Shown here piece after piece: positions 16,192-39,645 of a stretch of DNA of 63,922 bases (positions within the stretch are counted from its first letter, which is position 1; every line of letters starts with the position of its first letter). The notes under the pieces are model-generated. The model ran no database searches, was not told the origin of the DNA, and worked only from the letters and a program-made list of their open reading frames with translations. Where the stretch lies: IMG/VR virus record IMGVR_UViG_3300035670_000198, positions 1 through 63,922 of that record, one strand, 5' to 3'. This stretch comes from a virus (lineage: Duplodnaviria; Caudoviricetes). The position numbers were made by a program, and so were the translations under genes.

Positions 16192-17361
16192 TTAGGTTAC
16201 GCCTCCGCAATTGATATTTAGTCCTACGCTAAAGTCTGTATCTGGTCTGCCGCCATCATATACAACAGCACCGATTGGTCCTTGTGGTCCTTGTGGTCCA
16301 GTTTCACCATTGACGCCACTTGGTCCTTGTGGACCTTCTGGTCCTGTTGGTCCTTGTGGACCCGTTTCACCATTGACGCCACTTGGTCCTTGTGGACCTT
16401 CTGGTCCTGTTGGTCCTTGTGGACCAGAAGGACCTTGCGGACCCGTATCTCCATTAGCGCCACTTGGTCCTGGTGGACCAGGTAATCCAGTAGGACCTTG
16501 CGGACCTTCAGGACCAGTTGGACCAGCATCGCCAGTTGCGCCAGTTGGTCCTTGAGGACCAGTATCACCAGTTGATCCAGATGGTCCAGTTGGTCCTTGT
16601 GGACCTGTTGCGCCTGTGTCGCCACGATCACCAGTGCGTGCAAAAGTAATGATCACATCTTCACCGTTTTCAAATAATGTTCCAGTTAGATTGCCATCTC
16701 CTGAAACATATGCGCAACCTATTTCAAAATAGTCGCCATGATCAATTAGTGATGAAATAGTGTATAGAACAAATGAAGCGGTATTGGTTTTGTTTGCTAC
16801 TCTAAAGTGACCTTTGATTGCTGATGTTGAATCGTCGACCGTCAATAAAAAATTACTAATATCATTTCCACCATCATCTAATTCATGAATGGTCAATTCA
16901 TTAGCCAATGTCAAATTAGAAGCATTGAGTTTTAGTTTACCAGCTCCTGGATCAGTGCTGCTGGTATTGGTATCAAACGTATAGTCAAATGTTGCGCCGC
17001 CAAAATTTCCCGCCTCACCTTTTGGTCCTTGCGGACCTTGTGGACCTTGTGGACCATCGATACCAGCAGCACCGCTTGGTCCTTGCGGACCTAAATCACC
17101 AGCAACGCCTTGTGGACCTTGAGGACCTGTGTCACCAGTCACACCACTTGGTCCACTTGGTCCTTGAGGACCAATTTCTCCAGCAATACCTTGCGGACCA
17201 GTCGGACCTTGCGGACCCTGCGGACCTTGTGGACCTGTGTCGGCACCAGCACCAGCATACAAATCAGTGAAGTTTTCGTTTACTTTTTCAAACGCTTCAC
17301 GAATTGTATCGCCAGTTCCGTCATTAGGTGCTGCGCCAATATCGATTATTTGTTGTGTCAT
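16192..17361 (-). CDS. Short collagen-like fibre protein with gp9/gp10-like N-terminal anchor
   Basis: [26 protein letters not shown]; Gly-Pro-X runs; one GGATF...TFARTGD domain. Confidence 0.85.
16286..16412. repeat. Near-perfect 63-bp tandem duplication in collagen coding sequence
   Basis: [21 protein letters not shown] encoded twice with almost identical DNA; ends approximate. Confidence 0.8.
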
Positions 17362-23199: not shown

Positions 23200-23206
23200 T
23201 ATTTAG
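23200..23206 (-). promoter_or_regulatory. Late promoter variant (CTAAATA) for the glycosyltransferase cluster
   Basis: Overlaps the stop of the 1883-aa gene. Confidence 0.6.
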
Positions 23207-26200: not shown

Positions 26201-28854
26201 CCTTGCGGACCTTGTGGACCAACACTACCCCTATCGCCAGTTCTGCCAAATGAAACTAGAATTGCTTGATCGTTTACAAATGAACTTGAAGAACCAGTGA
26301 TGTGCGTTACATCAATCTCATAGTATCCAGTTAGATCAGTGAGATCATTGATGTTATAAAGTTCAAATGTACCAGCATTTGTCTTATCAAAGATTTTCAA
26401 ATAACCTTTGATTGTACTTGTACTATCATCAAATGCTGTCAAGAAGGTTAGAATATTTGAACCATCAGCATCAACGTTGTCAATATAAACTTTGGTTGTA
26501 AGTGTTGGAACAACATTATTGAACTTGAGTTTACCAACACCAGGGTCAGTACTTGTAACTTCATCATTGAATTCATAAGCAAAACTGATTCCACCATATG
26601 CGCCTTGCACACCTGATGGACCTGATGGACCCATTGGTCCTTGAGGACCTTGTGGTCCACGTGCACCAATCGCACCTTGTGGACCCTGTGGACCTTGTGG
26701 ACCAACTTCACCAGTAACACCTTGCGGACCTTGTGGTCCAGTTTCGCCTTGTGCTCCCTGCGGACCTTGTGGACCCTGTGGACCCTGTGGACCTTGAGGA
26801 CCTTGTGGACCAAACACGCCTTGTGGACCTTGTGGACCAACAATTAGACCAGCATCAACCCATTGTACAAGATCATCGTTATAGACATAAAGATGTCCAA
26901 TGCTTGTTACAACATAAGCGTCAGCATCATTTGCTGAGCCAGGAAGATCAGTAACATCAATTACTGTACCAAGTACATTGATGCCACCACCAGGAACACC
27001 CTGTGGACCTTGCGGACCTTCTGGACCCTGTGGACCTTGTGGTCCGAATACACCTTGAGGACCTTGTGGTCCTTGTGGTCCAACTACACCTTGTGGTCCT
27101 TGCGGACCATCAACACCTTGCGGACCTTGCGGACCTTGTGGACCAATGAATGGACCAGCATCAACCCAAACAGCTGGATGCGGACAATCGTCCCAAACAT
27201 ATAGATGACCGTCAGCGATTACAATATATGCATCGCCAGCAGTTTGGTCAGTAATTGAATTGATTAGAATTTCATAAGTTGGTACAGTGCCAACAAGACG
27301 AATGCCAGCGCCAGGAATACCTTGAGCACCACTTGGTCCTTGTGGACCTTGCGGACCAATTGCACCTTGAGCGCCACTTGGTCCTTGTGGACCTTGTGGT
27401 CCTGTGAAACCACGATCACCTTTGACGCCTTGTGGACCTTGCGGACCTGTTGGTCCACGTGAACCTTGTGGACCACGACGACCTGTTGTAGCAGTAACTT
27501 CCCAAGTCATACCGTTGTAAATGAATTCAACAGTAACGCCTCGGAGATCAAGTCTTACAATTTGATCGCTACCTTCAATGGTATTATCTAATGATTGGAT
27601 GAAGAGATTATTTGCGCCCCAATCATCACCGTCAGTAACTTGAACATAGCCACCAAGAACTGGAGTGTTTGGTAGTGTGATTGTGAATGGACCATTGACT
27701 GTTGTGTTAGCAACAATACGATCGCCATCAACTGCTGTGTAATCCAATGAGTGAACTGACCAGTGTTGTAGCGCACCGCTTGCACCTTGTGGACCTGTTG
27801 GACCAGCAACACCTTGCGGACCACGTGGACCAGCAACACCTTGAATACCTGATGGACCTGTTGGTCCCTGTGGACCAGATGGACCAGAAGCACCAACTAA
27901 ACCTTGCGGACCAGTAGGACCCTGTGGACCAGCAAAACCTCGAGGACCAGATGGACCTTGTGGACCAATGTCACCTTGCGCACCTTGAGGACCAGCAACG
28001 CCAGATGGACCTTGCGGACCAGCAACACCACGTGGACCCGTTGCACCAGATGGACCAGCCTCACCTTGTTCACCTTGCGCGCCCGACGGACCAGATGGAC
28101 CAGTAGGACCAACAGCACCAGTTGCGCCAGATGGACCTTGTGGACCACGCGCACCGCTTGGACCAGATGGACCTTGTGGACCTTCATCACCAACAGCACC
28201 AGATGGACCAATAGGACCTTGAGGACCTGCAGCACCAACCAAACCACGTGGACCTGAAGGACCTGATGGTCCAGCAAAACCTTGAAGACCTTGTGCACCT
28301 GATGGACCTTCTGGACCCTGTGGACCAGCAACACCTTGAGGACCTGATGGACCTTGAGGACCAGCAACACCACGTGGACCGCTTACGCCTTGCGGACCTT
28401 GTGGACCAGCATCACCCTTTACGCCTTGTGGACCAGAAGGACCTGATGGTCCAGATGGACCTTGCGCGCCAGCAACACCTTGTGGACCGCGAGCGCCTGC
28501 AGGACCACTTGGACCCTGTGGACCAATCTCGCCCTGAGCACCTTGTGGACCAGATGGTCCTGTGGGACCGCGACTACCAACAGGACCAGATGGACCAGAT
28601 GGACCAGAAGCACCGCGAGGACCAGAAGGACCAGAGACACCTTGTGGTCCTTGAGGACCAGCAGCACCTGAAGGACCTTGTGGACCGCCTGACGGACCTG
28701 TAGGACCGAGTCCACCTTGAGGACCTGATGGACCTTGTGGTCCTTGAGGACCAGCAGGACCACCTGCGCCGCGACCAGTTGAAACTTTTACAACTGGTTT
28801 TTGAGTTGAAACTTTGATTGTCTGGCCAATAGCCGTGCTGACATTCGCTGACAT
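23203..28854 (-). CDS. Giant collagen-like fibre protein (1883 aa), multidomain
   Basis: Extensive Gly-Pro-X runs; gp9/10-like beta domain ([20 protein letters not shown]); [16 protein letters not shown] fibre motif; lectin-like domain; C-terminal adaptor domain. Confidence 0.9.
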
Positions 28855-28855
28855 A

Positions 28856-29191
28856 TTACTGAGTTACCTGAGGGAGAACTGTAATGATTCCTTCGACGAT
28901 TCTTGTAGTTAGATTCGCAGTATCCTTTTGTTTCACATCAAATAAGTAACGTCCAGCCTTTATATTGGAAGTTGTAGCAGAATTCATGGTAAGAGTGACA
29001 TTGCCATTCGCTGAGTCTACTATCGTGACAGTCAAATTGGCTGTCACATTTGCTGAATAGTATGATTTACGAATTGACGACGTAAAAAGATAGCCTGTTA
29101 TATTTAGAGGGCTTCCGTCGTCTTGGGTCAGATCGAGGTTATAGGAGAGATCTGTTCCCTGGTCAAGATCTAATTCTACAAATTGCGCCAT
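28856..29191 (-). CDS. Small virion Ig-like protein (BppU N-terminal-like)
   Basis: LDQGTD...IRKSY...GNVTLTM...KAGRYLFDV...[14 protein letters not shown]. Confidence 0.75.
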
Positions 29192-29248: not shown

Positions 29249-30055
29249 TCAATCCCCTGTATATCTCTCCAATTTGAACTTTTTCTTGATCATATAATAC
29301 TTACGATACCAGTTCCCTTCGTAAAATTTCTTCGGCGATTTATGAGAATCTAATTGTTCAATAGTGCCTGGACCATAAGAAGCAGAAAAATCTTCAGTTG
29401 TTTTGATTGGGATAACTTGCAGCAATGGAGTTCCTGCTGGGATGGTAATATCTAATCTTCTTTTTGGGGAAAAGATCACATTTGCAGTCGTGAACTCTCT
29501 ATAATCTACAACTCCAGGATAGAGATATAGATCCTCAAGATATGGGCAGTGATAGAAAGCAGGAAGCAATAACGCAGAAACGTTTCTCTTTCCGTAGATT
29601 TTCCATGGACCTGGCATATTCCATGCAGTTGGTTTGATATCATCTTTGAATGTGAACAAACCATTTGTAACATCAGTAGCCATTGGAAATGGTTCTCTTA
29701 CTGGAAGTTCTGGTGGATGAATTTCCATTGGATTTGAGAATGGATGTGGTTTCGGTTTTGCTGCCTTATCGCCTGATGACGATCCATATCGAATCACAGT
29801 GCCTGCTTTATTTGATTTGATATGAATATCAATCCATGCTGTGATCAGATAACCCATGCGAGAGTAATCATGCATTCCAGGGCATCCTGGGAAATTATAA
29901 TTACCCTGTTCTTTTTCTTGAAACTCTTTGAAAAATGGTTTTACATCTTTCGCAAGAAGAATTGGGTAATGTGTATAGACCTGTCGACTCGAGTCAACAA
30001 ATTCTAGATCAGGAGTTTCTTTTGAAAAGAAATTGAATAACTTATTCATCTTCAT
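29249..30055 (-). CDS. DUF6065-like protein (paralog 2)
   Basis: GCPGMHDYSRMGYLI...PWKI...PGVVD...IPAGTPLLQVIPI. Confidence 0.7.
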   Translation of the reverse strand: MKMNKLFNFFSKETPDLEFVDSSRQVYTHYPILLAKDVKPFFKEFQEKEQGNYNFPGCPGMHDYSRMGYLITAWIDIHIKSNKAGTVIRYGSSSGDKAAKPKPHPFSNPMEIHPPELPVREPFPMATDVTNGLFTFKDDIKPTAWNMPGPWKIYGKRNVSALLLPAFYHCPYLEDLYLYPGVVDYREFTTANVIFSPKRRLDITIPAGTPLLQVIPIKTTEDFSASYGPGTIEQLDSHKSPKKFYEGNWYRKYYMIKKKFKLERYTGD

Positions 30056-30788
30056 GTTTTCTCTTTCTCAATTCCCAAGTATAATGATGAGTGCGTGTGT
30101 GCTGAGCCTTTTGAATCTTTTCAATGTGCTTCTTCTCAGCCATTGACATTGGACGAACTTTTGGTTTACGATTATTGAATGAACCACGCTTGACTGGAAT
30201 TGCCGTTACTAGTGGTGTTCCTGCAGGCAGACTTCCGTCAAAGTCAGGAACTAACCAAGCCGCAGGAAAATTCACTTCCTTTGGATATGCATCAGTATCA
30301 ACATATCCAGCAAGGCATCGGAAAGGTTGATCAAAATGATTCATTGGCGGGATAAACAAGGTTGACCAACCTGGCTTTGTTTTGATTACCCAACGATTGA
30401 TAAACTTGACAGGATTGCCATGCTTGAATCCCAGCGCAGCCTTACCACCAACCTGACCTGCGTCGTGGAACTCAGCAACCGTAAGTCCTGGAGGATTTAT
30501 AATCTCAATTTGTGTACAGTTGTGATTTGTTGCAACATGAAGATCGCCAGCAAGTGGAATTGTAAACCCAAGAGACATAGCGTCGAGCATCGGTAAACAC
30601 TTCTTTGCTGTCATAGTTGGATTGCCAAAAACATCTCGTTTACCAGGATCAAATGTTGGCGCAAGGTCTTTGAACCATTTCGGAAGATATTTTACAGCAG
30701 GGCGAGGTTCTGGAATTACACCATCGAAATCTGGATGACAATAAAATTCCATTACATCATTGCCCCAAAACTTGAGCAAATTTTTCAT
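30042..30788 (-). CDS. DUF6065-like protein (paralog 1)
   Basis: P.WFK...KKCLPMLDAMSLGFTIP...WVIKTKPGWSTLFIPPMNH...GYVDTD...AGTPLVTAIP. Confidence 0.78.
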   Translation of the reverse strand: MKNLLKFWGNDVMEFYCHPDFDGVIPEPRPAVKYLPKWFKDLAPTFDPGKRDVFGNPTMTAKKCLPMLDAMSLGFTIPLAGDLHVATNHNCTQIEIINPPGLTVAEFHDAGQVGGKAALGFKHGNPVKFINRWVIKTKPGWSTLFIPPMNHFDQPFRCLAGYVDTDAYPKEVNFPAAWLVPDFDGSLPAGTPLVTAIPVKRGSFNNRKPKVRPMSMAEKKHIEKIQKAQHTRTHHYTWELRKRKHEDE

Positions 30789-30789
30789 A

Positions 30790-31392
30790 TCAATGAGTCC
30801 TCTCGCCCATAACCCAGCATACTAACGATTTACGAACACCAGAGGTGACAGGCGCAACACGATGTGGCATAAATGAAGAGAAGAAAATAACTTCACCACG
30901 TTTTGGTTTTAGGACTAGTGGTTCGTTGACTCTGCCATGTGGAACTAATTGAAACTCACCACCGCCATAATCATCTGGATCAGTGAGCATGATACTAGCA
31001 CTAATTTTACGAATGTAATTGGTACTGCCAATGTCCATGTCCATGTGCCAATCATAATGTTGTTTTGTTCTGGCTTTATAGACGGTATACTGAAAATTAT
31101 CGAAACCGTCAATATTATACATGAAGTGGTCGTAATTTACTTGAGAAAGCAAACCACCAAATTTTTGAAAAATCCAGTCTGAGTTTTGATCGTGCATAAG
31201 CCACATGATATCACTATCGCGCGCTTTTTTATTCACGGATCCTGTGCTTGTGGTGCCACCGATCTGACCTCGTTGAAACTTTTGTAAGTCTTCAAGATCA
31301 ATAATCTTGTCGCATTCTTCGTCGGTGAATATTTGGTTTGTGATGCAATACTGATCTAGTTTTTTTGCATACCTTTGCACTTTGAATGGCAT
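30790..31392 (-). CDS. 2OG-Fe(II) oxygenase, prolyl-hydroxylase-like
   Basis: FTDEEC...FQYTVY...YDWHMD...RKISASIML...YGGGEF...MPHRVAPVTSGVRKSLVCW (HxD...H...RxS intact). Confidence 0.92.
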   Translation of the reverse strand: MPFKVQRYAKKLDQYCITNQIFTDEECDKIIDLEDLQKFQRGQIGGTTSTGSVNKKARDSDIMWLMHDQNSDWIFQKFGGLLSQVNYDHFMYNIDGFDNFQYTVYKARTKQHYDWHMDMDIGSTNYIRKISASIMLTDPDDYGGGEFQLVPHGRVNEPLVLKPKRGEVIFFSSFMPHRVAPVTSGVRKSLVCWVMGERTH

Positions 31393-31429
31393 AACAACTC
31401 CACATTTTGCAGAATAAACAATTATACTA

Positions 31430-31436
31430 TATTTAG
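31430..31436 (-). promoter_or_regulatory. Late promoter variant (CTAAATA) for the oxygenase/DUF6065 genes
   Basis: Overlaps the stop of the 884-aa gene; GGAG SD downstream. Confidence 0.6.
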
Positions 31437-34087
31437 TCGATCTTTACAACTATTTGACCGCCTGTAGGTACAACTACTGGGTAGTTGGCAGAGTCAGGAT
31501 ACACATATGTATCTACTGGTGTTGGTGGAACATATGGTGCTGGTTCTCCAGCATTGTATCCTGCAATATTTCCTGGAGCATTATAGTTTGCGCTTGCGCC
31601 AGCACCACCTGGGAAATAAACACCAAGAACATTTGTTGGGCTTCCTGCTGTACCAAGAATTGGTGGGTTATACGTTGCAGGATTGCCAGCATTATATGAT
31701 GCGGCTGTATTACCTGAATAAGTTGCTACGTTTCTTGGATTATAAGTTGCAGGATTACCAGCATTGTATGAAGCAATATTATTGCCAGTAAATGTTGCAG
31801 GTGAAGGTGGATTATAACTTGCTGGATTGCCAGCGTTGTAATTAGCAAGATTGTTGCCAGTATAAGTTGCAGGATTTCCAGCATTGTATGAAGCAGCGCT
31901 GCCAGCATTATAATTGGCAAGAGTGTTTCCTGAATAAGAAGCAATGCTTCCAGGATTGTAAGATGCGACATTTCCTGCGTTATATCCAGAAACATTGTTG
32001 CCAGTATAACTTGCAGCAGAGCCAGCATTATACACAGCAGACCCAGGATTATATGCTGCTATGTTTCTTGGATTATACGTCGCTGTTGTGCCAGCGTTGT
32101 AGTTAGCGTTGTTGCCAACATAACCAGAAATATTTGTTGGATTATATGATGCTGGTGATCCAGAATTATAATTTGCTGATCCAGGATTATAACCAGAAAC
32201 GTTTCTTGGATTATATGAAGCAACAGTTCCAGGATTATAGTTTGCACTATTGCCAGAATATCCAGAAACATTGTTGCCAGTATAAGAAGCAGGTGAACCT
32301 GTGTTGTAATTAGCAGAACCTGGATTATAATTTGCTACTGTCGGTGGATTGTATGAAGCAACAGTTCCAGGATTATAGTTAGCAGATCCAGGATTATAGT
32401 TTGCTACTGTTGGTGGGTTGTAACTTGCTGGAGTTCCAGCATTGTAATTCGCTGATCCTGGATTATAGCTGGCAACATTTCTTGGATTATAAGTTGCAAC
32501 TGTTCCAGCGTTATAGTTTGCTGTACCTGGATTGTAATTCGCAATAGTTCTTGGATTATAAGTTGCTACAGTACCAGCATTATAGTTCGCAGTTCCTGTG
32601 TTATAATTTGCCACTGTTGGTGGGTTATATGACGCTGGGTTTCCAGGATTATAATTTGCTACACCTGGATTGTATCCGCCAGTCGCGTTTCCAGGTGATC
32701 CTGGAATTGATGAGTAATAAATGTAGACATACAAATTGATTGCTTCGTGCGGACCTGCTGCTGGATTACCATATGCATCGGTTGGGGCTGGAGCTGGTCC
32801 TGATCCAGATTGCGGATAATATTGAAATCCAATTTGAACAGGATCTTCATAGAAGAAATAATCAAATCCAAAATCATGAACATAGAATGTTCCAAACCAG
32901 TTTGTTGCTGTCGGTGGATTATATACTTGAGTGTTGCTAGAATAGCCAGCAATGTTTCTTGTATTATAAGTTGCGGGATTTCCAGGAGTAAAGTTGGCGT
33001 TGTTACCAGAATATCCAGCAACGTTTCTTGGATTATAAGTCGCCGCCGTTCCAGGATTATAGTTTGCTGTGTTACCAGAATACCCAGCAACGTTTCTTGG
33101 ATTATATGTTGCTGCAGTGCCAGGATTGTAATTTGCAGTATTTCCTGAGTATCCTGCTACGTTGCGAGGATTATATGATGCTGGATTGCCTGGAGTGAAG
33201 TTGGCATTGTTACCAGAATATCCAGCAACGTTACGAGGATTATATGTTGCAGCGTTTCCTGGAGTAAAGTTGGCGTTGTTACCAGAATATCCAGAAACAT
33301 TTGTAGGATTATAACTTGCTGGAGAACCAGTATTGTAGTTAGCCGAGCCAGGATTATAACCAGAAACGTTTCGCGGATTATATGATGCTACATTGCCCGC
33401 ATTATAATTTGCACTATTCCCAGAATATCCAGCAATATTGTTGCCAGTATAAGATGCTGGAGAACCTGTGTTATATGTCGCGCTTCCCGCGTTATATCCT
33501 GCTACGTTTCTTGGATTGTAAGTAGCAGGAGTGCCAGCATTATAGTTGGCATTGTTGCCAGTAAATCCAGAAACGTTTGTCGGATTATATGATGCGATGT
33601 TACCAGTGTTATAACCAGCAACGTTGCGAGGATTGTAACTGGCAATATTATTGCCAGAATAAGACGCTGCGCTTCCTGAGTTATAATTTGCATTGTTGCC
33701 ACTATATGAGGCGACATTGTTGCCAGAATAGGAAGCAGGATTCCCAGAATTATAGTTGGCATTGTTGCCAGTATAAGATGCTGGGACTGGCGGATTGTAA
33801 CTTGCTGGGTTGCCAGCGTTATAGGTCGCAGCATTATTGCCAGAATAAGATGCCGTGGTTCCAGCGTTATATGTTGCAGGGCTACCTGAATTGTAGGTTG
33901 CTGCGCTGTTTCCTGTATATGTGGCTGGTGTTCCTGGAGTTGCGTTAGTACCTGTGCCTGCGCGTCCAGAGACTGAAGCATTGAATCGACCGTATGGGAT
34001 CGTTATGCTGGATGTATTATTGAAAGTGGTTGTGTTTCGAAATGCCGAACCGATCCAGCTTTTCAACAGGTCTGTGTGTATGGGCAT
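31433..34087 (-). CDS. Tyr/Asn/Gly/Pro 7-8-mer repeat protein (884 aa) with a central non-repeat domain
   Basis: N-cap IPYGR..VSGRAG; 44 repeat units, ~70-aa insert, 44 units; C-cap GVYFPGG...VPTGGQIVVKID. Confidence 0.9.
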   Translation of the reverse strand: MPIHTDLLKSWIGSAFRNTTTFNNTSSITIPYGRFNASVSGRAGTGTNATPGTPATYTGNSAATYNSGSPATYNAGTTASYSGNNAATYNAGNPASYNPPVPASYTGNNANYNSGNPASYSGNNVASYSGNNANYNSGSAASYSGNNIASYNPRNVAGYNTGNIASYNPTNVSGFTGNNANYNAGTPATYNPRNVAGYNAGSATYNTGSPASYTGNNIAGYSGNSANYNAGNVASYNPRNVSGYNPGSANYNTGSPASYNPTNVSGYSGNNANFTPGNAATYNPRNVAGYSGNNANFTPGNPASYNPRNVAGYSGNTANYNPGTAATYNPRNVAGYSGNTANYNPGTAATYNPRNVAGYSGNNANFTPGNPATYNTRNIAGYSSNTQVYNPPTATNWFGTFYVHDFGFDYFFYEDPVQIGFQYYPQSGSGPAPAPTDAYGNPAAGPHEAINLYVYIYYSSIPGSPGNATGGYNPGVANYNPGNPASYNPPTVANYNTGTANYNAGTVATYNPRTIANYNPGTANYNAGTVATYNPRNVASYNPGSANYNAGTPASYNPPTVANYNPGSANYNPGTVASYNPPTVANYNPGSANYNTGSPASYTGNNVSGYSGNSANYNPGTVASYNPRNVSGYNPGSANYNSGSPASYNPTNISGYVGNNANYNAGTTATYNPRNIAAYNPGSAVYNAGSAASYTGNNVSGYNAGNVASYNPGSIASYSGNTLANYNAGSAASYNAGNPATYTGNNLANYNAGNPASYNPPSPATFTGNNIASYNAGNPATYNPRNVATYSGNTAASYNAGNPATYNPPILGTAGSPTNVLGVYFPGGAGASANYNAPGNIAGYNAGEPAPYVPPTPVDTYVYPDSANYPVVVPTGGQIVVKID

Positions 34088-34115
34088 CTATACCAAAATC
34101 CATTGCTAGTTTGGA

Positions 34116-34129
34116 TATTTAGTATTTAC
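34116..34129 (-). promoter_or_regulatory. Tandem late promoter variants (GTAAATA-CTAAATA)
   Basis: Intergenic, upstream of the 884-aa gene. Confidence 0.65.
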
Positions 34130-34133
34130 CGAA

Positions 34134-35102
34134 TCAATCGTATCGATCAGGAATTTCCCAGTCATTGACCACATCTGGAGGGAGAAGAATACTCCTCGAG
34201 ATGGCTCTATTTTCCAGTTTTCGATTGATATAATCGACGCCAGAATACTTACGATATTCTTCGAAGAACTCGTCGCTGAAACTATCCAAGAAATTGCGAA
34301 ATTCTTTTCTAGATTTTTCTCGATTTCTATTGAGTTGTTCGTGCGAGACAACCTGATTCACATCTTGTTTAGTGATATATCGGTGTGTATCTGTCAAGTG
34401 ATAGCAATGAATTCTTCTTGGAGCGCAAAGTTTATATCCAGCCGCAAATGAAGCCAGCGTCATATATTGTTCTTCGCCCTCAAAGAAAATGCGAGGATTC
34501 ATCCCAACGTTTCTCAACCAATCACTATGTGTGAAGAAGTTTCCAGCAAATAAGTGAATGGTTGGGTGTAGATGATCTTGTGTCGCTTCTCGAAACTCTC
34601 CGTGAGCGCCAAGAATATAATTCTCATGGAAAGACCAATATCCTGCTTTGACAGTAATATTGCCATGACGATCAAGGAATGGCGTTCCATCCTCTTGCAT
34701 TCTAAATGAACCACAATTCGCGTCAATGATGATTCGATCAGTTTGATGCTGTTGCATTCCAAGTTTGAAATCATTGATCAAATAGCGATCCCAATTCTTA
34801 TCAAAAAGCATATGAGAGTCTACTTGATAGTAGAACTCTTCATCATCGAGTTGAATCGAATTTAGATGTCTTGCCCAACCAACGCCATCTGAGAATTTGG
34901 CATCAATTCTTTTATATCGAACATTTTTATTTTGAGCAAGATCTGGATATTTGGCTTCTAGGCTATCAGCATAGTCAGTTTGTTCAAAGACGCCATAAGT
35001 TATTTTTGTCAGTTGAGATTGCATCTCCATCATATTGCGTAGAGTTTGGTGGAGAAGCGGATCTCTATATGAGACGATACTGACAAAAATTTTCATTAGC
35101 AA
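34134..35102 (-). CDS. GT60-family GlcNAc transferase ([Skp1]-hydroxyproline N-acetylglucosaminyltransferase-like)
   Basis: IFVSIVSYRD...GVFEQ...GVGWAR...EEFYYQVDSHMLFDKNWD...FAGNFF...FFEGEE...AGY...YH. Confidence 0.88.
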   Translation of the reverse strand: MLMKIFVSIVSYRDPLLHQTLRNMMEMQSQLTKITYGVFEQTDYADSLEAKYPDLAQNKNVRYKRIDAKFSDGVGWARHLNSIQLDDEEFYYQVDSHMLFDKNWDRYLINDFKLGMQQHQTDRIIIDANCGSFRMQEDGTPFLDRHGNITVKAGYWSFHENYILGAHGEFREATQDHLHPTIHLFAGNFFTHSDWLRNVGMNPRIFFEGEEQYMTLASFAAGYKLCAPRRIHCYHLTDTHRYITKQDVNQVVSHEQLNRNREKSRKEFRNFLDSFSDEFFEEYRKYSGVDYINRKLENRAISRSILLPPDVVNDWEIPDRYD

Positions 35103-35671
35103 CCCCTCTTACCCATTACCCATACGTTCAATGACTTTCTCGTTCCAGAAGTGATTGGTACGATTCTTGACGGCATCCATGGAGCATAAAATACTACGCT
35201 ACCAAGATTTGGTTTGATTGGCATGACTTCATTCGGATCGCCAGTATTCATGATCTCAATTTCACCCCCCAAATATTCTTCTGGGTCAGTAAGCATAATC
35301 GATGCGCAGATCTTTCGTTCCCAATTTAGAAACGCGAAGTCAACATCGTAATGCCAACCATATTCTTGATTCTTTTTATATTTGGCATATTGAAATGCAT
35401 CGAAGCCGTCGATATCATACATGAAGAAATCGATATTGATACGACCAATAAGTCCAGAAAACTTATCAAAAAGCCACTGAGTGTCTTGATTTGGCGGTAG
35501 GACTGCTAGATCTGCTTGATTCTTGCCATTTGTTTGTTCTTTAGAAAACATAAGTTTCTTTTCTAAAGAAGTTACTTTATCGACTTCTTCTTGCGTCAGA
35601 AAGTCTGAAACAACAGCAAATTTAGAGAGGATACGATTGTATTTGACAACTTGAGGCATAACGAACTCCAC
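35096..35671 (-). CDS. 2OG-Fe(II) oxygenase paralog lacking the distal His
   Basis: IDGFDAFQY...YGWHYD...RKICASIMLTDP...MPSRIVPITSGTRKSL; clear paralog of 30790..31392. Confidence 0.88.
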   Translation of the reverse strand: MEFVMPQVVKYNRILSKFAVVSDFLTQEEVDKVTSLEKKLMFSKEQTNGKNQADLAVLPPNQDTQWLFDKFSGLIGRINIDFFMYDIDGFDAFQYAKYKKNQEYGWHYDVDFAFLNWERKICASIMLTDPEEYLGGEIEIMNTGDPNEVMPIKPNLGSVVFYAPWMPSRIVPITSGTRKSLNVWVMGKRGC

Positions 35672-35695: not shown

Positions 35696-35703
35696 TATTT
35701 ATT
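35696..35703 (-). promoter_or_regulatory. Late promoter variant (AATAAATA)
   Basis: Overlaps the stop of the 538-aa gene; GGAG SD downstream. Confidence 0.55.
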
Positions 35704-37315
35704 CGATTCTTACAACTATTTGTCCACCTGATGGAACTTCAATTGCGTGATTTCGATAATCAATTTCTTGGTTCTCAAAGTAATAACTAATCTCTTGCTC
35801 ATTGACATAAACGCCAGGAGCGCAAACACCACCACCTGGGAAGTAAACACCAAACGCATATCCAGGTTCTCCAGGAGTTCCTGGGATTGGGAAGTTATAA
35901 GTGCTTGCACTTCCTGGATTATACGTTGCTACAAAGTTTCCAGTGTAACTTGCAATATTGTTGCCAGTATATGTTGCTGGATTACCAGAGTTATAACCAG
36001 AAACAAAGTTAGAAGTGTAAGACGCTGGGTTGCCAATATTATATGATGGAGGTGGTGCTGGATTGTATCCACTAATTGTGTTGCCAGTATATGTTGCTGG
36101 GCTACCAGAATTGTAGTTGGCATTGTTGCCAGTATATCCACTGATCGTATTTCCAGAGAAACCGCCCACAAACGTTTCATTATATGTTGCTGGACTTCCA
36201 GCGTTATAATTGGCATTATTTCCAGTATATGCACCAATTACATTTCCAGAGAAACCACCAACAAACGTTGGATTGTATGTGGCTGGATTACCTTCATTGT
36301 ATGTTGCTGGATTGCCGCCAGGGGCAAATCCAGCAGAGAAGTTTCCTGTGTAATTTCCAGCATTACCTGTATTATAATTTACATTGTTGCCTGAATAGTT
36401 ACCAACAGTAGAAGGATTATAGTTTGCTATGTTACCAATATAATCCGCAACGTTTCCTGGATTATAGTTGGCAGGTGGGCTTGCTGATGGCGTACACTCG
36501 TAATTGGTAACTGTATATTCAATAATTTCTGGAGTTCCAGGAGGTGGACCATAAAAACTTGTTGGAGTTGGGCAGCTTGGATCGCTTCCGCTTCCATAAT
36601 AAGTGCCGCTACCAATTGGGCTACCATCAAACGCAAATACGATTGAATAATTTGTAGTAGAGTTCCAAGTCACACCACCAGCAGCAGGATTATACCCTGC
36701 AACACTTGTTGGGTTATAACCTGAAATGTTTGTTGGGTTGTATGTAGCAACATTTCTTGGGTTGTATGATGCAATGTTTCCAGGAACATAGAAAGCATTT
36801 CCTGGAGTAAATTCTAGAGGATTATACCCAGTGATTGTTGGTTCATTATATGTCGCAGGATTACCGCCAGAAAGAACTGGATTGTATGTTGCATTGTTAC
36901 CAATGTAACCATCTAACGTGCCAGCATTATATTCAGCAGTTGCAGTTCCAGAAGTTCCAGGCTCATTACTTATTACACTGTATGTAATATAAATGTTTTG
37001 ACCAATAGCCTCATGCGGACCTGCTGCTGGATTGGCGTAAACATTTACTGGATCAGGCAGCGTGGGCGTTGTCAAAAATTGAGGATAGTATTGAAATCCA
37101 ATTTGTACTGGATCATCGAAGAAAAACTCAAGCTGTCCATTGTCATTACTAAAAAATGATGCGCTCCAATACACCAATCCACCGCCTGATGGTGGATTAT
37201 ATACCTGCACGTTTCCAGTATACGAAGCAACACCTTCGTTATAACCTGCAAGATTTCCTCCAGTACTTGGATTATATGTCGCAGGATTTCCTGGTTCGTA
37301 GATAGCAGTAGACAT
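35699..37315 (-). CDS. Tyr/Asn/Gly/Pro repeat protein, C-terminal half of a split paralog
   Basis: Starts MSTAIYEPG; two non-repeat inserts; C-cap GVYFPGG...VPSGGQIVVRIE homologous to the 884-aa C-cap; no N-cap. Confidence 0.88.
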   Translation of the reverse strand: MSTAIYEPGNPATYNPSTGGNLAGYNEGVASYTGNVQVYNPPSGGGLVYWSASFFSNDNGQLEFFFDDPVQIGFQYYPQFLTTPTLPDPVNVYANPAAGPHEAIGQNIYITYSVISNEPGTSGTATAEYNAGTLDGYIGNNATYNPVLSGGNPATYNEPTITGYNPLEFTPGNAFYVPGNIASYNPRNVATYNPTNISGYNPTSVAGYNPAAGGVTWNSTTNYSIVFAFDGSPIGSGTYYGSGSDPSCPTPTSFYGPPPGTPEIIEYTVTNYECTPSASPPANYNPGNVADYIGNIANYNPSTVGNYSGNNVNYNTGNAGNYTGNFSAGFAPGGNPATYNEGNPATYNPTFVGGFSGNVIGAYTGNNANYNAGSPATYNETFVGGFSGNTISGYTGNNANYNSGSPATYTGNTISGYNPAPPPSYNIGNPASYTSNFVSGYNSGNPATYTGNNIASYTGNFVATYNPGSASTYNFPIPGTPGEPGYAFGVYFPGGGVCAPGVYVNEQEISYYFENQEIDYRNHAIEVPSGGQIVVRIE

Positions 37316-39645
37316 TAGTAAGTTAGAACCCCATTAGCATAGAAATTTGGGCTAGACTTATACTTATTATTGAATGTATAGACCGTATATGGATAGTTGA
37401 TTGAAACAATCGCATTGATTCGAACTGCGTTGCCATTCTTATCAACAAAACTATCGCCCACTTGTACCTTCGCCACATCACCCAAAGATCTATATCCTTG
37501 CATTGTCAAGTTTGGATTCATAGAAGCATAACCCTTTCCAATGACGAAGAATGGGTGATCATCAGACGCTCTGACAGAAATGCTATTTTCTAGAATGTAT
37601 TCAAACATCACTCTGTTCACGCGAGTGATAATCTCTGAAACTTCGTTTGTTTCATGCTCGCCTGTATCTGGGTTATACGACAAGATTTGATCACCAACTT
37701 GAATTGTTTCAATTGCCTTGGTTGAACCATCAGCCATTGAGATGAGCGTGTCACCAGCAAAGCAGCAACCACCGCCACCAATTGGTGTTGGCTCATTATA
37801 ACCACCAATTGTTGGTTCGTTATACGTCGCCACTGTGCCTTCGTTGTATGTTGCAGCAGTGCCTTCGTTGTATAGTGCAGTTCCTGCGTTATAAACCTCA
37901 GTGCTTCCACTTGGATTATATCCTGAAATAGTATTTCCAGTGTAACTTCCTACTGTGCCTGGATTATAATTTGCGATATTTCCAGCAACATAATTTGCAA
38001 TTGAGCCTTCGTTATAAATTCCTGTGGCGTTATTGCTGATGTAATTAGCAATGGTTCCCTCATTATAAATTTGTGCACCAGGAGTATTGAATGTTGCGGT
38101 AAAGTTTCCAGTATAAGTTGCAGGATTACCTGTATTATAATCCGCAATTCCTGGATTATACACAGCATTACCGCTATTGTATCCAGCAACACTAGTTGGA
38201 TTATATGTTGCTGGACTTCCAGTATTATAATCACCAACCCCTGTATTGTACAACGCATTACCGCTATTGTAGCCACCAATATTGGTTGGAGTGAATGACG
38301 CTGGATTGCCAGTATTATAGTTTGGATCAGCAGATCCAGGTGGATTATATCCAGAAATTGTAGCAAAGGAGCAGTCAGTGAATGGAGTGCCTGGAGTAAA
38401 TACTGCTGAATTGCCAACAAAGCTGTTTATATTACCAGCATTATAGATAGCAGTGCCTTGATTATAATTGGCATTATTATCTGCATAAGTAATTGCATTA
38501 CCAGCAGTAAATCCTGAAGGGTTGCCAGTATTATAATTCGCATTGTTTCCAGTATATCCACCAATGATATTGCCACCATAAGTGGCTGGTGTTCCAACAT
38601 TATATGCGCTTGCTGTTCCTGGATTATATCCAGAAATATTTGTTGCATTATAACTGCTTGGATTGCCAGTATTATAGTTTGCACTGTTGCCAGTATATGT
38701 TGCAGGATTTCCTGGAACTGCTGGAGAGCAATCGTAGTAGATGATATAAGAATAAACTTGTGCTCCACCACCAACCACGAATCCTGGGAAATTTGGAAAA
38801 TTGCTTGGTGTTACAACAGTCGTTGAGTCTCTCAGAGGACATCCAACAGAAGTCCCCGTACCCTCAAAGGCGAGTTGCTCATAATAGAAATAATCTTCGT
38901 CGAAAATTGTTTCAATAATAACACCATACCAGTTTACAGTGGCTGGATTATATGTGAGTGGACTACCTGCGTTATATCCTGAAATTGTATTACCAGTAAA
39001 CCCAACAGGATTGCCAGTATTATAATTCGCATTATTGCCTGAATAAGCAGAGATACTATTTGAACCGTTGACATATGTTGCAGGATTTCCTGGAGTATAC
39101 GTCGCAGTTCCAGTATTATATCCATTGATATTTCTTACATTATAACCACCAGGTGTAGCGGCATTATAAGTTGTGCCGACACCAACGTTATAACCTGCAA
39201 CATTTGTTGCGTTATATCCAGAAATGTTGCCAGCATTATATTGAGCGCCACCTGCGCTTCCTGAGTTATATCCTGTTATGACTGCTGGGTTGAATCCAGT
39301 CCCACAAGGATTATAGATTGCGTTGTTACCACCACTAGCTGGAATTTCAGTATTTCCAGTATATGACGCAGGATTACCAAAATTATAATTAGCACTGTTA
39401 CCAGTATATGAGGCAGTGAATCCTGGATTATATGTTGCAGCAACGCCAGAGTTATATGAGGCTGCGCTGTTGCCAGTGTAAGTTGCAATGTTTCCAGGAA
39501 CTGGACAGTTACCTGATCCACCACGACCTGAAACGTAAAGACGATTTCGACCATATGGAACAAACATATTTCCATATGTGTTGAATACAGTGGAACCGCG
39601 TGTAGCGGTCCATGTTTTTTCTAATTCATCAATACGCTTTGGCAT
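37315..39645 (-). CDS. Tyr/Asn/Gly/Pro repeat protein, N-terminal half of a split paralog, with C-terminal Hint domain
   Basis: N-cap VPYGR..VSGRGG homologous to the 884-aa N-cap; ends in a Hint domain; no C-cap. Confidence 0.9.
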   Translation of the reverse strand: MPKRIDELEKTWTATRGSTVFNTYGNMFVPYGRNRLYVSGRGGSGNCPVPGNIATYTGNSAASYNSGVAATYNPGFTASYTGNSANYNFGNPASYTGNTEIPASGGNNAIYNPCGTGFNPAVITGYNSGSAGGAQYNAGNISGYNATNVAGYNVGVGTTYNAATPGGYNVRNINGYNTGTATYTPGNPATYVNGSNSISAYSGNNANYNTGNPVGFTGNTISGYNAGSPLTYNPATVNWYGVIIETIFDEDYFYYEQLAFEGTGTSVGCPLRDSTTVVTPSNFPNFPGFVVGGGAQVYSYIIYYDCSPAVPGNPATYTGNSANYNTGNPSSYNATNISGYNPGTASAYNVGTPATYGGNIIGGYTGNNANYNTGNPSGFTAGNAITYADNNANYNQGTAIYNAGNINSFVGNSAVFTPGTPFTDCSFATISGYNPPGSADPNYNTGNPASFTPTNIGGYNSGNALYNTGVGDYNTGSPATYNPTSVAGYNSGNAVYNPGIADYNTGNPATYTGNFTATFNTPGAQIYNEGTIANYISNNATGIYNEGSIANYVAGNIANYNPGTVGSYTGNTISGYNPSGSTEVYNAGTALYNEGTAATYNEGTVATYNEPTIGGYNEPTPIGGGGCCFAGDTLISMADGSTKAIETIQVGDQILSYNPDTGEHETNEVSEIITRVNRVMFEYILENSISVRASDDHPFFVIGKGYASMNPNLTMQGYRSLGDVAKVQVGDSFVDKNGNAVRINAIVSINYPYTVYTFNNKYKSSPNFYANGVLTY
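37318..37764 (-). other. Hint (Hedgehog/intein) domain, 149 aa, no endonuclease, no terminal His-Asn
   Basis: GGGGC|CFAGDTLISMADGSTKAIETIQVGD...SDDHPF...VGD...VYTF...NFYANGVLTY*. Confidence 0.9.

What the first reader, a model, noticed from the sequence alone, without database searches (positions are those of the whole stretch)
31433..34087. A protein stem-loop: repeat arms obey an antiparallel complementarity code
SEEN (hand parse): the 884-aa protein has 44 aromatic-anchored 7/8-mer units, a ~70-aa unique domain at the ORF centre (~32700-32905), then 44 more units. I classed units as G (Gly at aromatic+3: YNxG, FTPG) or non-G (YxGN, YNPR, YNPT, YNPP). Pairing N-arm unit i with C-arm unit 44-i gives G opposite non-G in 42 of 43 pairs. 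The one exception is symmetric (SYNPPVPA opposite SYNPPSPA). The pattern is aperiodic and polarity swaps are compensated: N25 GYNPGSA faces C19 GYSGNSA, while N22 GYSGNSA faces C22 GYNPGSA. All ten C-arm 7-mers face 7-mers, and all three NFTPG units face YNPP. INFERENCE: the chain folds back into a long, register-specific two-stranded hairpin, with N- and C-caps forming one basal Gly-rich domain and the insert displayed at the tip. I know of no described family with such a base-pair-like code.
Basis: partly seen in the sequence, partly recalled or inferred. Interest (0 to 1): 0.95.

Follow-up and report, generated by a model that had tools for sequence, protein, structure and literature searches.

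The report
Phage fibre protein with mirror-paired arms
This phage tail-fibre-region protein has two long repeat arms whose units match in mirror order and change together in related phages, as if the chain folds back on itself like an RNA stem-loop, a design not described before for this kind of repeat.

Summary
ORF 31433..34087(-) encodes 884 aa: N-cap, 44 units, ~75-aa insert, 44 units, C-cap. Pairing N(i) with C(44-i) gives 42 of 43 unlike pairs.

"Aperiodic" is wrong. Both arms carry a 23-aa (8+8+7) period that alone gives 36 of 43. The excess is modest in this protein alone: 25 of 20000 coil shuffles reach it.

The comparative test decides. The protein belongs to an unannotated two-cap family: 121 of 202 held proteins have both caps. 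Among 116 single-insert members, arm lengths of about 40-360 aa stay equal (Spearman 0.91).

Fifteen orthologues, with 10 distinct pair ladders of 35-43 pairs, each show 0-2 like pairs antiparallel against 8-18 parallel. Their differences are paired indels and two-sided polarity swaps.

A second subfamily mirrors unit lengths, and 22-mers always face 23-mers. No DNA palindrome explains this.

Best reading: a register-specific antiparallel stalk, probably an intrachain fold-back, carrying a swappable tip domain. It sits in a conserved cassette with a prolyl-hydroxylase-like enzyme.

No structure prediction could be obtained.

The parts
33920..34087 (-). N-cap, residues 1-56 (MPIHTDLLKSWIG...PYGRF..VSGRAG...)
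   Evidence: A profile built from 16 family members matches residues 1-47. The cap is 86-93% identical between the window protein and its five first-found orthologues. No Pfam match.
32900..33919 (-). N arm, residues 57-396: 44 aromatic-anchored 7/8-residue units, mostly (7 non-G, 8 G, 8 non-G) coils of 23 aa
   Evidence: Unit parse. 69-nt tandem arrays at 32932-33321 and 33647-33775.
32675..32899 (-). Central non-repeat insert, residues 397-471, the proposed tip domain
   Evidence: Self-similarity segmentation puts the only non-repeat segment here, giving arms of 350 and 361 aa. Inserts are only 24-52% identical between orthologue groups, while arms are 75-84% and caps 77-93%.
31649..32674 (-). 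C arm, residues 472-813: 44 units, mostly (7 G, 8 G, 8 non-G) coils, then all 8-mers
   Evidence: Unit parse. 69-nt arrays at 32120-32629 and 72-nt arrays at 31663-32016. It pairs with the N arm at i+j=44 with 42 of 43 unlike pairs.
31433..31648 (-). C-cap, residues 814-884 plus stop (..NVLGVYFPGG...YPVVVPTGGQIVVKID)
   Evidence: The family profile matches residues 820-883. No Pfam family at threshold.
30790..31392 (-). 2OG-Fe(II) oxygenase, prolyl-4-hydroxylase-like, directly downstream
   Evidence: PF13640 at 1.8e-15. Best solved relatives are prolyl 4-hydroxylases 5c5t, 3itq and 5hv0. The gene right after a two-cap gene is this oxygenase in 59 cases and another two-cap gene in 13.
29249..30788 (-). 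Two DUF6065 genes (30042..30788 and 29249..30055), conserved cassette members
   Evidence: PF19541 and phrog_7084. Homologues of the oxygenase and DUF6065 lie within 6 kb of the two-cap gene in 73 of 75 loci, in the order CAP-oxy-duf-duf(-gt).
34134..35102 (-). GlcNAc-type glycosyltransferase, directly upstream
   Evidence: PF11397 at 4.4e-30. A homologue is present in 57 of 75 loci.
35096..35671 (-). Second 2OG-Fe(II) oxygenase paralogue
   Evidence: ORF list. It is recognised as an oxygenase homologue in the cassette scan.
35699..39645 (-). Paralogous pair. The 776-aa protein (37315..39645) has an N-cap, repeats, an insert and a C-terminal Hint domain. The 538-aa protein (35699..37315) has no N-cap, has repeats and two inserts, and ends in a C-cap-like tail. 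The stop of the first overlaps the start of the second.
   Evidence: The same coupled pair occurs in 2 further contigs. PF01079 (Hint) is precomputed for the 776-aa cluster.

Best explanation
The 884-aa protein belongs to an undescribed family of two-cap proteins from uncultured T4-like phages. The layout is N-cap, repeat arm, variable central domain, repeat arm, C-cap.

The two arms are held together antiparallel and in register, unit against unit. Each pair holds one YNxG-type unit and one non-G unit (YxGN or YNPx). Most likely each chain folds back on itself. The caps then meet at the base and the central domain sits at the distal tip, giving a protein stem-loop.

Length changes only by adding or removing a coil (3 units, 23 aa) on both arms. 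Unit polarity changes only by swapping both partners.

Functionally I read it as a length-tunable stalk in the host-recognition (tail-fibre) module. It displays an exchangeable tip domain, and its proline-rich repeats are probably hydroxylated and glycosylated by the enzymes encoded next to it.

Shown: the mirror complementarity, its conservation through compensated changes, equal arm lengths across the family, the gene cassette, and the variability of the insert.

Inferred: physical contact, intrachain rather than interchain pairing, tip display, receptor binding, and the modifications.
For: Window alone: 42 of 43 unlike pairs at i+j=44. The next-best registers give 34/37 and 36/40. Coil shuffles reach 42 in 25 of 20000.

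Family: 121 of 202 held proteins carry both caps. Among 116 distinct single-insert members, arm lengths run from about 40 to 360 aa and correlate (Pearson 0.89, Spearman 0.91). N/(N+C) is 0.48 +/- 0.06. Uniform placement of the insert reaches the observed centring in 0 of 10000 trials. Among 27 sister pairs, the four largest length changes hit both arms alike: 62/102, -196/-201, 74/60 and 76/104 aa.

Orthologues: six proteins with 35-45 units per arm each show 1 like pair, in 35-43 pairs, at one antiparallel register. The best parallel register gives 8-17. With the metagenome orthologues there are 15 proteins and 10 distinct ladders: 575 pairs with 16 like, or 386 pairs with 10 like among distinct ladders. 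Nine of those 10 are the same conserved YNPP:YNPP pair.

Compensated changes:
- L040 against L039 adds one 23-aa coil to both arms next to the insert.
- L039 against L035 has two pairs with both partners swapped.
- The window against L107 (83.5% identical) has pair 22 swapped on both sides: YSGNSAN/YNPGSAN becomes YNPGTAN/YSGNNAN.
- A GGG run in the N arm faces an nnn run in the C arm, and L108 has the reverse.

Cognate arms give 1 mismatch. Non-cognate arms give 2-12, except among near-identical relatives.

Finer code: all 21 F-start G units face a unit with Pro at +3, 3 of them in the reverse orientation. Only 1 of 355 other G units does.

Second subfamily (W-anchored units of 18-27 aa): N-arm unit lengths equal the reversed C-arm lengths within 1 aa in 8 of 11 distinct series (12/12, 12/12, 11/11, 10/10, 9/9, 9/9, 6/6, 6/6). 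22-mers face 23-mers 21 times, and no 22:22 or 23:23 pair occurs. The long half of one unit faces the long half of its partner in 163 of 172 comparisons.

Context: the gene lies in the tail-fibre and baseplate module. The cassette is conserved. Inserts are 24-52% identical between orthologue groups, against 75-93% for arms and caps.
Against: No structure is available. Both AlphaFold jobs failed and the complex job returned nothing. The ESM Atlas models of two small members are unconfident, with pLDDT 0.30 and 0.31.

Most of the window's own score comes from a 3-unit period. Parallel registers of the window reach 0.86.

The arms share directly repeated blocks (N19-28 resembles C16-25, and N5-7 resembles C37-39, read). 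In several small members the arms are direct duplicates. Some equality of length could therefore come from descent or gene conversion.

The orthologues are related, so the shuffle p-values are not independent.

Three of 11 W-type series do not mirror cleanly: 6/9, 4/8 and 4/8.

Twelve of 116 members fall outside 0.40-0.60. Among 27 sister pairs, the sign of change agrees in only 13 of the 22 that changed by 8 aa or more. This is partly noise in placing the insert boundary.

The paralogues in the window (538 and 776 aa) have unequal arms and no clean code.

An antiparallel dimer would give the same sequence signals.
Confidence: 0.6

Rival explanations
1. Antiparallel homo-oligomer. The arms pair in the same mirror register, but the N arm of one chain lies against the C arm of another. 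Each end of the rod then carries one N-cap and one C-cap, and the inserts meet in the middle.
For: Every sequence signal found here is equally predicted: mirror complementarity, equal arms and compensated changes. SMC proteins were first read this way from the same kind of symmetry (PMC2141774, abstract and passages read).
Against: A two-fold symmetric rod has no distinct base and tip. That fits poorly with a fibre that must attach to a baseplate by one end. The insert is the most variable part, as expected for an exposed tip rather than a buried mid-rod junction. Insert-less members with inner regions of only 64-77 aa exist. A tight turn is a simple reading for those. All of this is inference. 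Nothing run here separates the two readings.
Confidence: 0.2
2. Ordinary beta-solenoid or other fibre with only local contacts. On this view the 23-aa period reflects three sides per coil, the insert is a mid-shaft knob, and the mirror pattern is a by-product of periodicity, shared duplicated blocks and chance.
For: The 8+8+7 period suits a three-sided coil. Periodicity alone gives 36 of 43 in the window. Shared direct blocks explain the two 'compensated swaps' inside the window (read). Arms of small members are direct duplicates.
Against: It does not predict the following:
- equal arm lengths over a nine-fold range in 104 of 116 members;
- paired coil indels and two-sided swaps among 10 distinct ladders, with only one non-conserved like pair;
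- cognate arms pairing better than non-cognate arms;
- 12-18 mismatches in the best parallel register of the orthologues;
- the 22:23 length rule in the other subfamily.
Confidence: 0.1
3. A nucleic-acid constraint. On this view the two arm-coding regions form a long DNA or RNA hairpin, and the protein pattern merely reflects base pairing.
For: Antiparallel complementarity with compensatory change is the hallmark of nucleic-acid stems.
Against: No inverted repeat of 45 nt or more exists in the gene. With an 8-nt seed, only 20 short pairs (16-34 nt, 70-94% complementary) appear, and their arm positions are not collinear with the mirror register. Swaps replace whole 7-residue units by the other unit type. 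They do not exchange complementary bases.
Confidence: 0.03

Closest known systems
Distal tip ('needle', domains D10-D11) of the phage T4 long tail fibre protein gp37
   Same: It is a phage fibre protein of the tail-fibre module whose chain runs out to a tip and comes back. Domain D10 is made of residues 811-881 plus 1010-1026, with the needle between them (PMC6957217, passage read). Motifs on the outgoing and returning segments lie at matching heights. It is a trimer with a receptor-binding tip.
   Different: The fold-back there is roughly 130 residues in all. Here it reaches about 350 residues per arm. gp37 is built on His-x-His iron sites (same paper), and the window protein has no HxH (sequence). 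A family profile finds no sequence similarity to any solved chain. No unit-pair code or paired indels are described for gp37.
SMC / MukB / Rad50-type fold-back coiled coils
   Same: The topology matches: an N-terminal and a C-terminal domain, two long arms of equal length separated by a central hinge, and arms paired antiparallel so that the terminal domains meet (PMC2141774, abstract and passages; PMC5526789, search listing only).
   Different: Those arms are alpha-helical heptad coiled coils, the heads are ABC ATPases, and the function is chromosomal. Here the arms are Tyr/Asn/Gly/Pro 7/8-residue units that cannot be coiled coil. The caps have no Pfam family, and the setting is a phage fibre module.
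Beta-solenoid and triple beta-helix fibres, e.g. the VxGxxxxx octapeptide beta-helix of T4 gp5 and tailspike beta-helices
   Same: Short Gly-containing repeats of about 8 residues, three per turn (23 aa here), in phage tail proteins.
   Different: In those folds, neighbouring coils of the same direction stack locally. Nothing couples a repeat to a partner hundreds of residues away in mirror order. The covariation seen here is not expected.
Prolyl-4-hydroxylase plus GlcNAc-transferase modification of a protein substrate, as for Skp1 in Dictyostelium or viral collagen-like proteins (pathway recalled)
   Same: A P4H-like 2OG oxygenase and a PF11397 'Glycosyltransferase (GlcNAc)' are encoded beside Pro-rich repeat proteins, in a conserved order.
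   Different: No evidence here that the repeats are the substrate. Two DUF6065 genes of unknown role are also part of the cassette. The repeats are not collagen (no Gly-X-Y period).

Membership tests
Two-cap repeat-arm family (defined here; no public name) | An N-cap (about 48 aa) at the N terminus and a C-cap (about 50 aa, GVxFPGG ... GGxIxVxIE) at the C terminus of the same protein | tested here: met
   Profiles of both caps match residues 1-47 and 820-883 of the window protein. 121 of 202 held proteins carry both.
Two-cap repeat-arm family (defined here; no public name) | Two repeat arms of equal length around a central non-repeat segment | tested here: met
   The window arms are 350/361 aa by segmentation and 348/342 aa by unit runs. 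In the family, 104 of 116 members lie within 0.40-0.60.
Two-cap repeat-arm family (defined here; no public name) | Mirror (antiparallel) complementarity of the arm units | tested here: met
   42/43 in the window. 0-2 like pairs in each of 15 orthologues. Mirror unit lengths in 8 of 11 W-type series. Not tested in the other subfamilies.
Two-cap repeat-arm family (defined here; no public name) | Gene followed by a 2OG oxygenase and two DUF6065 genes | tested here: met
   The window order is 884-aa gene, oxygenase, DUF6065, DUF6065. The oxygenase and DUF6065 are present in 73 of 75 loci. For the order.
T4 gp37-type needle | His-x-His iron-binding repeats along the needle | tested here: not met
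   The 884-aa sequence has no HxH motif.
T4 gp37-type needle | Sequence or profile similarity to gp37, gp12 or gp10 collar and needle chains | tested here: not met
   The family profile against all PDB chains gives only one chance-level hit, E = 0.38, to an unrelated deacetylase. No PHROG family matches.
T4 gp37-type needle | Homotrimer whose chains go to the tip and return | not testable with these tools
   The structure and complex predictions gave no result.
SMC / Rad50 fold-back coiled coil | ABC ATPase head formed from the N- and C-terminal domains | tested here: not met
   No Pfam family on the whole protein or on the caps.
SMC / Rad50 fold-back coiled coil | Heptad alpha-helical arms | tested here: not met
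   The arms are 7/8-residue units rich in Gly, Asn, Pro and Tyr. That composition is incompatible with a coiled coil, judged by direct reading.
Parallel beta-solenoid / triple beta-helix fibre | Tandem coils of constant length | tested here: met
   A 69-nt (23-aa) period in both arms.
Parallel beta-solenoid / triple beta-helix fibre | Only local (neighbouring-coil) constraints, so no coupling between distant repeats | tested here: not met
   Paired indels and two-sided swaps occur between arms 300-700 residues apart.
Collagen-like phage fibre | Gly-X-Y triplet period | tested here: not met
   Aromatic spacing is 7/8 with one Gly per unit. There is no 9-nt period in the TRF output.

The most novel reading that the evidence does not exclude
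A whole family of phage fibre proteins is built as protein stem-loops. Two non-helical repeat arms pair antiparallel through a small alphabet of unlike units:
- YNxG with YxGN or YNPx;
- FTPG specifically with YNxP;
- in another subfamily, long aromatic half-units with long proline half-units.

On this reading, evolution lengthens, shortens or re-polarises the stalk only by compensated two-arm changes, exactly as in RNA helices. The tip domain is swapped as a cassette, and the stalk is hydroxylated and glycosylated by a dedicated operon.

That would be a new fibrous fold principle. Its three-dimensional contacts could be read from repeat-level covariation alone.
Probability: 0.5. Interest if true: 0.92.

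Novelty: new variant of a known kind. Interest (0 to 1): 0.85.

Why it matters
If the arms really pair unit by unit, this is a new way to build a long protein rod. It would be a non-helical, register-specific fold-back whose length is set by the number of paired coils and whose partner rules can be read directly from sequence.

It would give four things:
- a structural model for an unannotated family that sits in the host-recognition region of uncultured T4-like phages.
- a handle on how such phages vary fibre length and swap receptor-binding tips;
- a rare case in which compensatory covariation, the classic proof of RNA helices, works at the level of protein repeat units;
- a candidate scaffold for designing rods of programmable length.

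The conserved hydroxylase, DUF6065 and glycosyltransferase cassette also points to proline hydroxylation and glycosylation of a bacteriophage virion protein. I found no report of this in the searches.

Tried and rejected
Structure:
- It then accepted two jobs: the small homologue P0084 with alignment A2, and the window protein with alignment A3.
- Complex prediction was sent with N-cap + N1-N10 against C34-C44 + C-cap. It met a full queue eight times. It then gave 'no usable answer' three times, and after that the cap was declared used. No verdict exists.
- The ESM Atlas models of two small members are unconfident (pTM 0.15 and 0.17, pLDDT 0.30 and 0.31), and their neighbours all have TM below 0.5. 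They were not used.

Homology:
- No Pfam or PHROG family for the three repeat proteins.
- No PDB relative by profile.
- No match in 50,697 phage records by tblastn or megablast. The low-complexity filter may hide the arms.
- No relative in representative prokaryote genomes with the C-cap as query, a search that reaches close relatives only.

Ideas dropped:
- The idea that non-G units are the reversed sequence of G units. G7 against reversed GN7 scores 0.45, but G7 against its own reverse scores 0.44, so the test does not discriminate.
- A DNA or RNA palindrome.
- The idea that the 776-aa (N-cap...Hint) and 538-aa (...C-cap) paralogues form a split version of the same stalk. Their unit strings are irregular, arm counts match in the window (about 24 against 24) but not in the other two contigs, and the G/non-G complement is not clean. 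This is left open.
- A vocabulary-free test counting coincident aromatic positions. Mirror beat parallel in 42 of 74 proteins, lost in 15 and tied in 17. It is crude and the proteins are not independent, so it counts only as weak support.

Literature: four searches found no paper on this family, on DUF6065, or on hydroxyproline in phage fibres. Supplementary files were not consulted.

Full report
WHAT IS THERE. The window is a 63.9-kb viral contig, estimated 36% complete. It carries the structural module of a T4-like myovirus: tail sheath, terminase, baseplate hub and wedge, and collagen-like tail fibres. Its tail sheath is only about 50-56% identical to those of isolated phages such as Pelagibacter phage HTVC008M.

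ORF 31433..34087 on the minus strand encodes 884 aa. Aromatic residues spaced 7 or 8 apart define 44 units from Y57 to Y389 and 44 units from Y472 to Y806. These flank about 75 non-repeat residues. A 56-aa N-terminal cap and a 71-aa C-terminal cap complete the protein.

No Pfam, PHROG or PDB family matches it. No record in the phage-isolate collection matches it either.

CHECK OF THE OBSERVATION. Call a unit G if Gly stands at aromatic+3. The arms then read:
- N arm: nGGnGnnGnnGnnGnnGnGGnnGnGGnnGnnGnnGnnGnnGnnn
- C arm: GGnGGnGGnGGnGGnGGnnGnGGnnGnGGnGGnGGnGnnGnnGn

Pairing N(i) with C(44-i) gives 42 unlike pairs of 43. Ten 7-mers face 7-mers. The single like pair is YNPPVPAS/YNPPSPAT, and every FTPG unit faces a YNPP unit.

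The statement that the pattern is aperiodic is not right. Both arms contain 69-nt (8+8+7 residue) tandem arrays. Every third register therefore scores 0.73-0.92 antiparallel and 0.76-0.86 parallel.

- Free shuffles never reach 42 (0 of 20000).
- Shuffles that keep whole coils have their mode at 36 of 43. They reach 42 in 25 of 20000 at the fixed register and 56 of 20000 at the best register.
- A block shuffle with register optimisation reaches the observed single mismatch in 76 of 5000.

The two 'compensated swaps' inside this protein come from one 10-unit block present in both arms in direct order (N19-28 and C16-25, read). The 7-mer classes of that block alternate. Taken alone, then, the window gives a real but modest signal.

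THE FAMILY. Sequence searches recovered a family. Profiles of the two caps find both caps in 121 of the 202 proteins held.

An objective segmentation marked the non-repeat segment as the part lacking 8-mer self-similarity. It found one insert in 86 of 120 proteins, none in 25 and several in 9. Adding ORFs from 75 viral loci gives 116 distinct single-insert proteins.

Across these, the arms range from about 40 to about 360 aa:
- N- and C-arm lengths correlate (Pearson 0.89, Spearman 0.91).
- N/(N+C) is 0.48 +/- 0.06.
- 104 of 116 lie within 0.40-0.60.
- Uniform placement of the insert reaches this in 0 of 10000 trials.
- Twelve outliers remain. Several appear to have more than one insert.

On a tree of the caps there are 27 sister pairs, and the differences in the two arms correlate (Pearson 0.88, Spearman 0.41). 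Four of the five changes above 40 aa affect both arms by similar amounts. Among the 22 pairs with a change of 8 aa or more, the sign agrees in only 13. Much of that disagreement is noise in placing the insert boundary.

ORTHOLOGUES: THE DECISIVE TEST. Five viral contigs carry orthologues with the same unit vocabulary. Their caps are 77-93% and their arms 75-84% identical to the window protein. Unit counts are 39/39, 41/42, 38/39, 38/39 and 35/36.

Each has one antiparallel register with a single like pair: 37/38, 40/41, 37/38, 37/38 and 34/35 unlike. The next-best in-phase registers give 0.75-0.85. The best parallel register gives 14-17 mismatches. Block shuffles reach the observed value in 4 to 25 of 5000. 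These p-values are not independent, because the proteins are related.

The changes between the proteins are what counts:
- L040 differs from L039 by one extra 23-aa coil in each arm, both next to the insert.
- L035 and L027 differ in the same way.
- L029 lacks three pairs at the base and has three more in the middle.
- L039 and L035 differ at two pairs where both partners have changed class.
- An irregular GGG run in the N arm faces an nnn run in the C arm.

As a control I paired the N arm of one protein with the C arm of another. That gives 2-12 mismatches, against 1 for cognate arms, except between near-identical relatives.

A second viral scan and one metagenome scan added more orthologues. 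In all there are 15 proteins with 10 distinct pair ladders. They hold 575 pairs with 16 like, or 386 pairs with 10 like among the distinct ladders. Nine of those ten are the conserved YNPP:YNPP pair.
- L108 has 0 like pairs of 38 and carries the nnn/GGG irregularity in the opposite orientation.
- L107 is 83.5% identical to the window protein. It differs in the ladder at exactly one pair, N22/C22, where YSGNSAN/YNPGSAN has become YNPGTAN/YSGNNAN.

Ten distinct ladders need at least nine changes between them. At most two of those involve a like pair. The others altered both arms together.

A FINER CODE. Among 376 unlike pairs of the ten ladders:
- All 21 G units that start with F face a unit with Pro at +3 (YNPP, YNSP or YNAP). 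Three of these are in the reverse arm orientation. Only 1 of the other 355 G units does so.
- G units with Thr at +4 face YNP[RQ].
- G units with Ser at +4 face YxGN or YNPT.
- YNxGNP faces YxGN.

These counts are inflated by tandem duplication and shared ancestry. They still show more than a binary rule.

A SECOND SUBFAMILY. Other two-cap proteins are built from W-anchored units of 18-27 aa. Each unit has an aromatic half (WTINYN[TNYN]VAYP) and a proline half (IANQP[EAARP]xTA).

In 8 of 11 distinct length series, N-arm unit lengths equal the reversed C-arm lengths within one residue at every position: 12/12, 12/12, 11/11, 10/10, 9/9, 9/9, 6/6 and 6/6. Shuffled C arms reach this in 0-3 of 2000 for the long series. 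Three series fail (6/9, 4/8 and 4/8), at least one because of a parsing error.

The pair types are 27:27, 22:23, 23:24, 18:18 and so on. No 22:22 or 23:23 pair occurs. A 22-mer has a long aromatic half and a short proline half. A 23-mer is the converse. So the long half of one unit always faces the long half of its partner: 163 of 172 comparisons over all series, and 130 of 130 in the eight clean ones. The selection of clean ladders for the second count should be noted.

That is what local length matching in an antiparallel duplex requires. It is not what direct duplication gives.

ALTERNATIVES.
- A nucleic-acid palindrome is excluded. There is no inverted repeat of 45 nt or more, and the short ones are not collinear with the mirror register.
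- A plain solenoid with local contacts explains the 23-aa period, but not the cross-arm covariation.
- An antiparallel homo-oligomer explains everything found here equally well. I rank it second only on general grounds: the polarity of a fibre, a variable insert as an exposed tip, and very short insert-less members.
- Whether paired units lie side by side in a ribbon, as in a trimeric needle, or stack as alternating coils cannot be told from sequence. Both demand that 7-mers face 7-mers and that coils are gained or lost in pairs.

CONTEXT AND LIKELY ROLE. The gene lies in the tail-fibre region, between a collagen-like 1883-aa fibre gene with a small fibre-assembly-like gene and the baseplate wedge genes. 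This matches the hypervariable 'host recognition cluster' described for related marine myophages (PMC7029224, passages read).

In 73 of 75 viral loci, homologues of the window's 2OG oxygenase and DUF6065 genes lie within 6 kb of the two-cap gene. A GlcNAc-type glycosyltransferase is present in 57 of 75. Many of these loci are near-duplicates.

The commonest order is two-cap gene(s), oxygenase, DUF6065, DUF6065, glycosyltransferase, all on one strand. The oxygenase is the gene directly downstream in 59 cases, and another two-cap gene in 13. The oxygenase's best solved relatives are prolyl 4-hydroxylases.

Between orthologue groups the insert is only 24-52% identical and falls into three or four types, while caps and arms stay 75-93% identical.

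I therefore read the protein as a length-tunable stalk presenting an exchangeable, probably receptor-binding, tip. Its proline-bearing repeats are likely hydroxylated and glycosylated. Those functional steps are inference.

COMPARISON WITH WHAT IS KNOWN.
- Topology has precedents. In T4 gp37 the chain runs to the tip and returns, so one domain is made of residues 811-881 plus 1010-1026 (PMC6957217). In SMC and MukB, two roughly 300-residue arms pair antiparallel between terminal domains and a central hinge (PMC2141774).
- The window protein is a member of neither. It has no HxH sites, no ATPase head, no coiled-coil composition and no sequence similarity.
- The non-helical 7/8-residue units, the unlike-partner rule and its compensated evolution are not described in anything I found. 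Supplementary files were not read.
- I rate it a new variant of a known kind (a fold-back stalk) carried by a new family. The pairing code itself is the novel element.

WHAT COULD NOT BE DONE. Both AlphaFold jobs were interrupted, and the complex job never returned a verdict. The Atlas models of two small members are unconfident. Physical pairing, intrachain topology, oligomeric state and contact between the caps therefore rest on comparative inference only.

VERDICT.
- Confidence that the arms are coupled antiparallel in register: about 0.8.
- Confidence that this is an intrachain fold-back with the insert at the tip: about 0.6.

Noticed in passing
window 29249..35671 and loci L008-L082: There is a conserved co-directional cassette. 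Its order is two-cap gene(s), P4H-like 2OG oxygenase, two DUF6065 genes, then often a PF11397 GlcNAc-type glycosyltransferase. Oxygenase plus DUF6065 occur in 73 of 75 loci and the glycosyltransferase in 57 of 75. The oxygenase is the next gene downstream in 59 cases. This suggests hydroxylation and glycosylation, or assisted folding, of the repeat proteins.
   Followed up: partly
window 35699..39645; L149 6035-9831; L151 6062-9666: In three contigs, an N-cap repeat protein is followed by a cap-less repeat protein that ends in a C-cap-like tail. The stop of the first overlaps the start of the second. In two of the three, the first protein ends in a Hint (Hedgehog/intein-like) domain after a GGGG-CC motif. 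The cap-less proteins of this kind printed start with MS, except two that start MA (P0022 and the L151 protein). Possible readings are a split two-cap protein joined or released by Hint autoprocessing, or a self-cleaving C-terminal assembly domain. A G/non-G complement between the two partners was not clean.
   Followed up: partly
window 32675..32899 and orthologues L027, L029, L035, L039, L040: The central insert is exchanged as a cassette. There are three or four unrelated or distantly related insert types (24-52% identity) in otherwise 75-93% identical proteins. The L029 insert resembles the insert of the window's 776-aa paralogue (my reading).
   Followed up: partly
window 13386..16190, 16192..17361 and 23203..28854: Three ORFs (934, 389 and 1883 aa) give very strong, multi-stretch PHROG matches to tail-fibre and collagen-like minor-tail families. 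The phage therefore carries several long repetitive fibre genes besides the two-cap proteins.
   Followed up: no
window 28856..29191: A 111-aa ORF just downstream of the DUF6065 genes matches phrog_3304, 'L-shaped tail fiber protein assembly' (1.4e-17). It may be a fibre chaperone.
   Followed up: no
proteins P0030, P0031, P0154 (159-173 aa): Minimal family members have both caps and only 64-77 inner residues with no insert. In P0031 the eight units read a b b b a a a b (YNT-type against YPY-type). That string is its own reverse complement. These are the best candidates for a first structure.
   Followed up: partly
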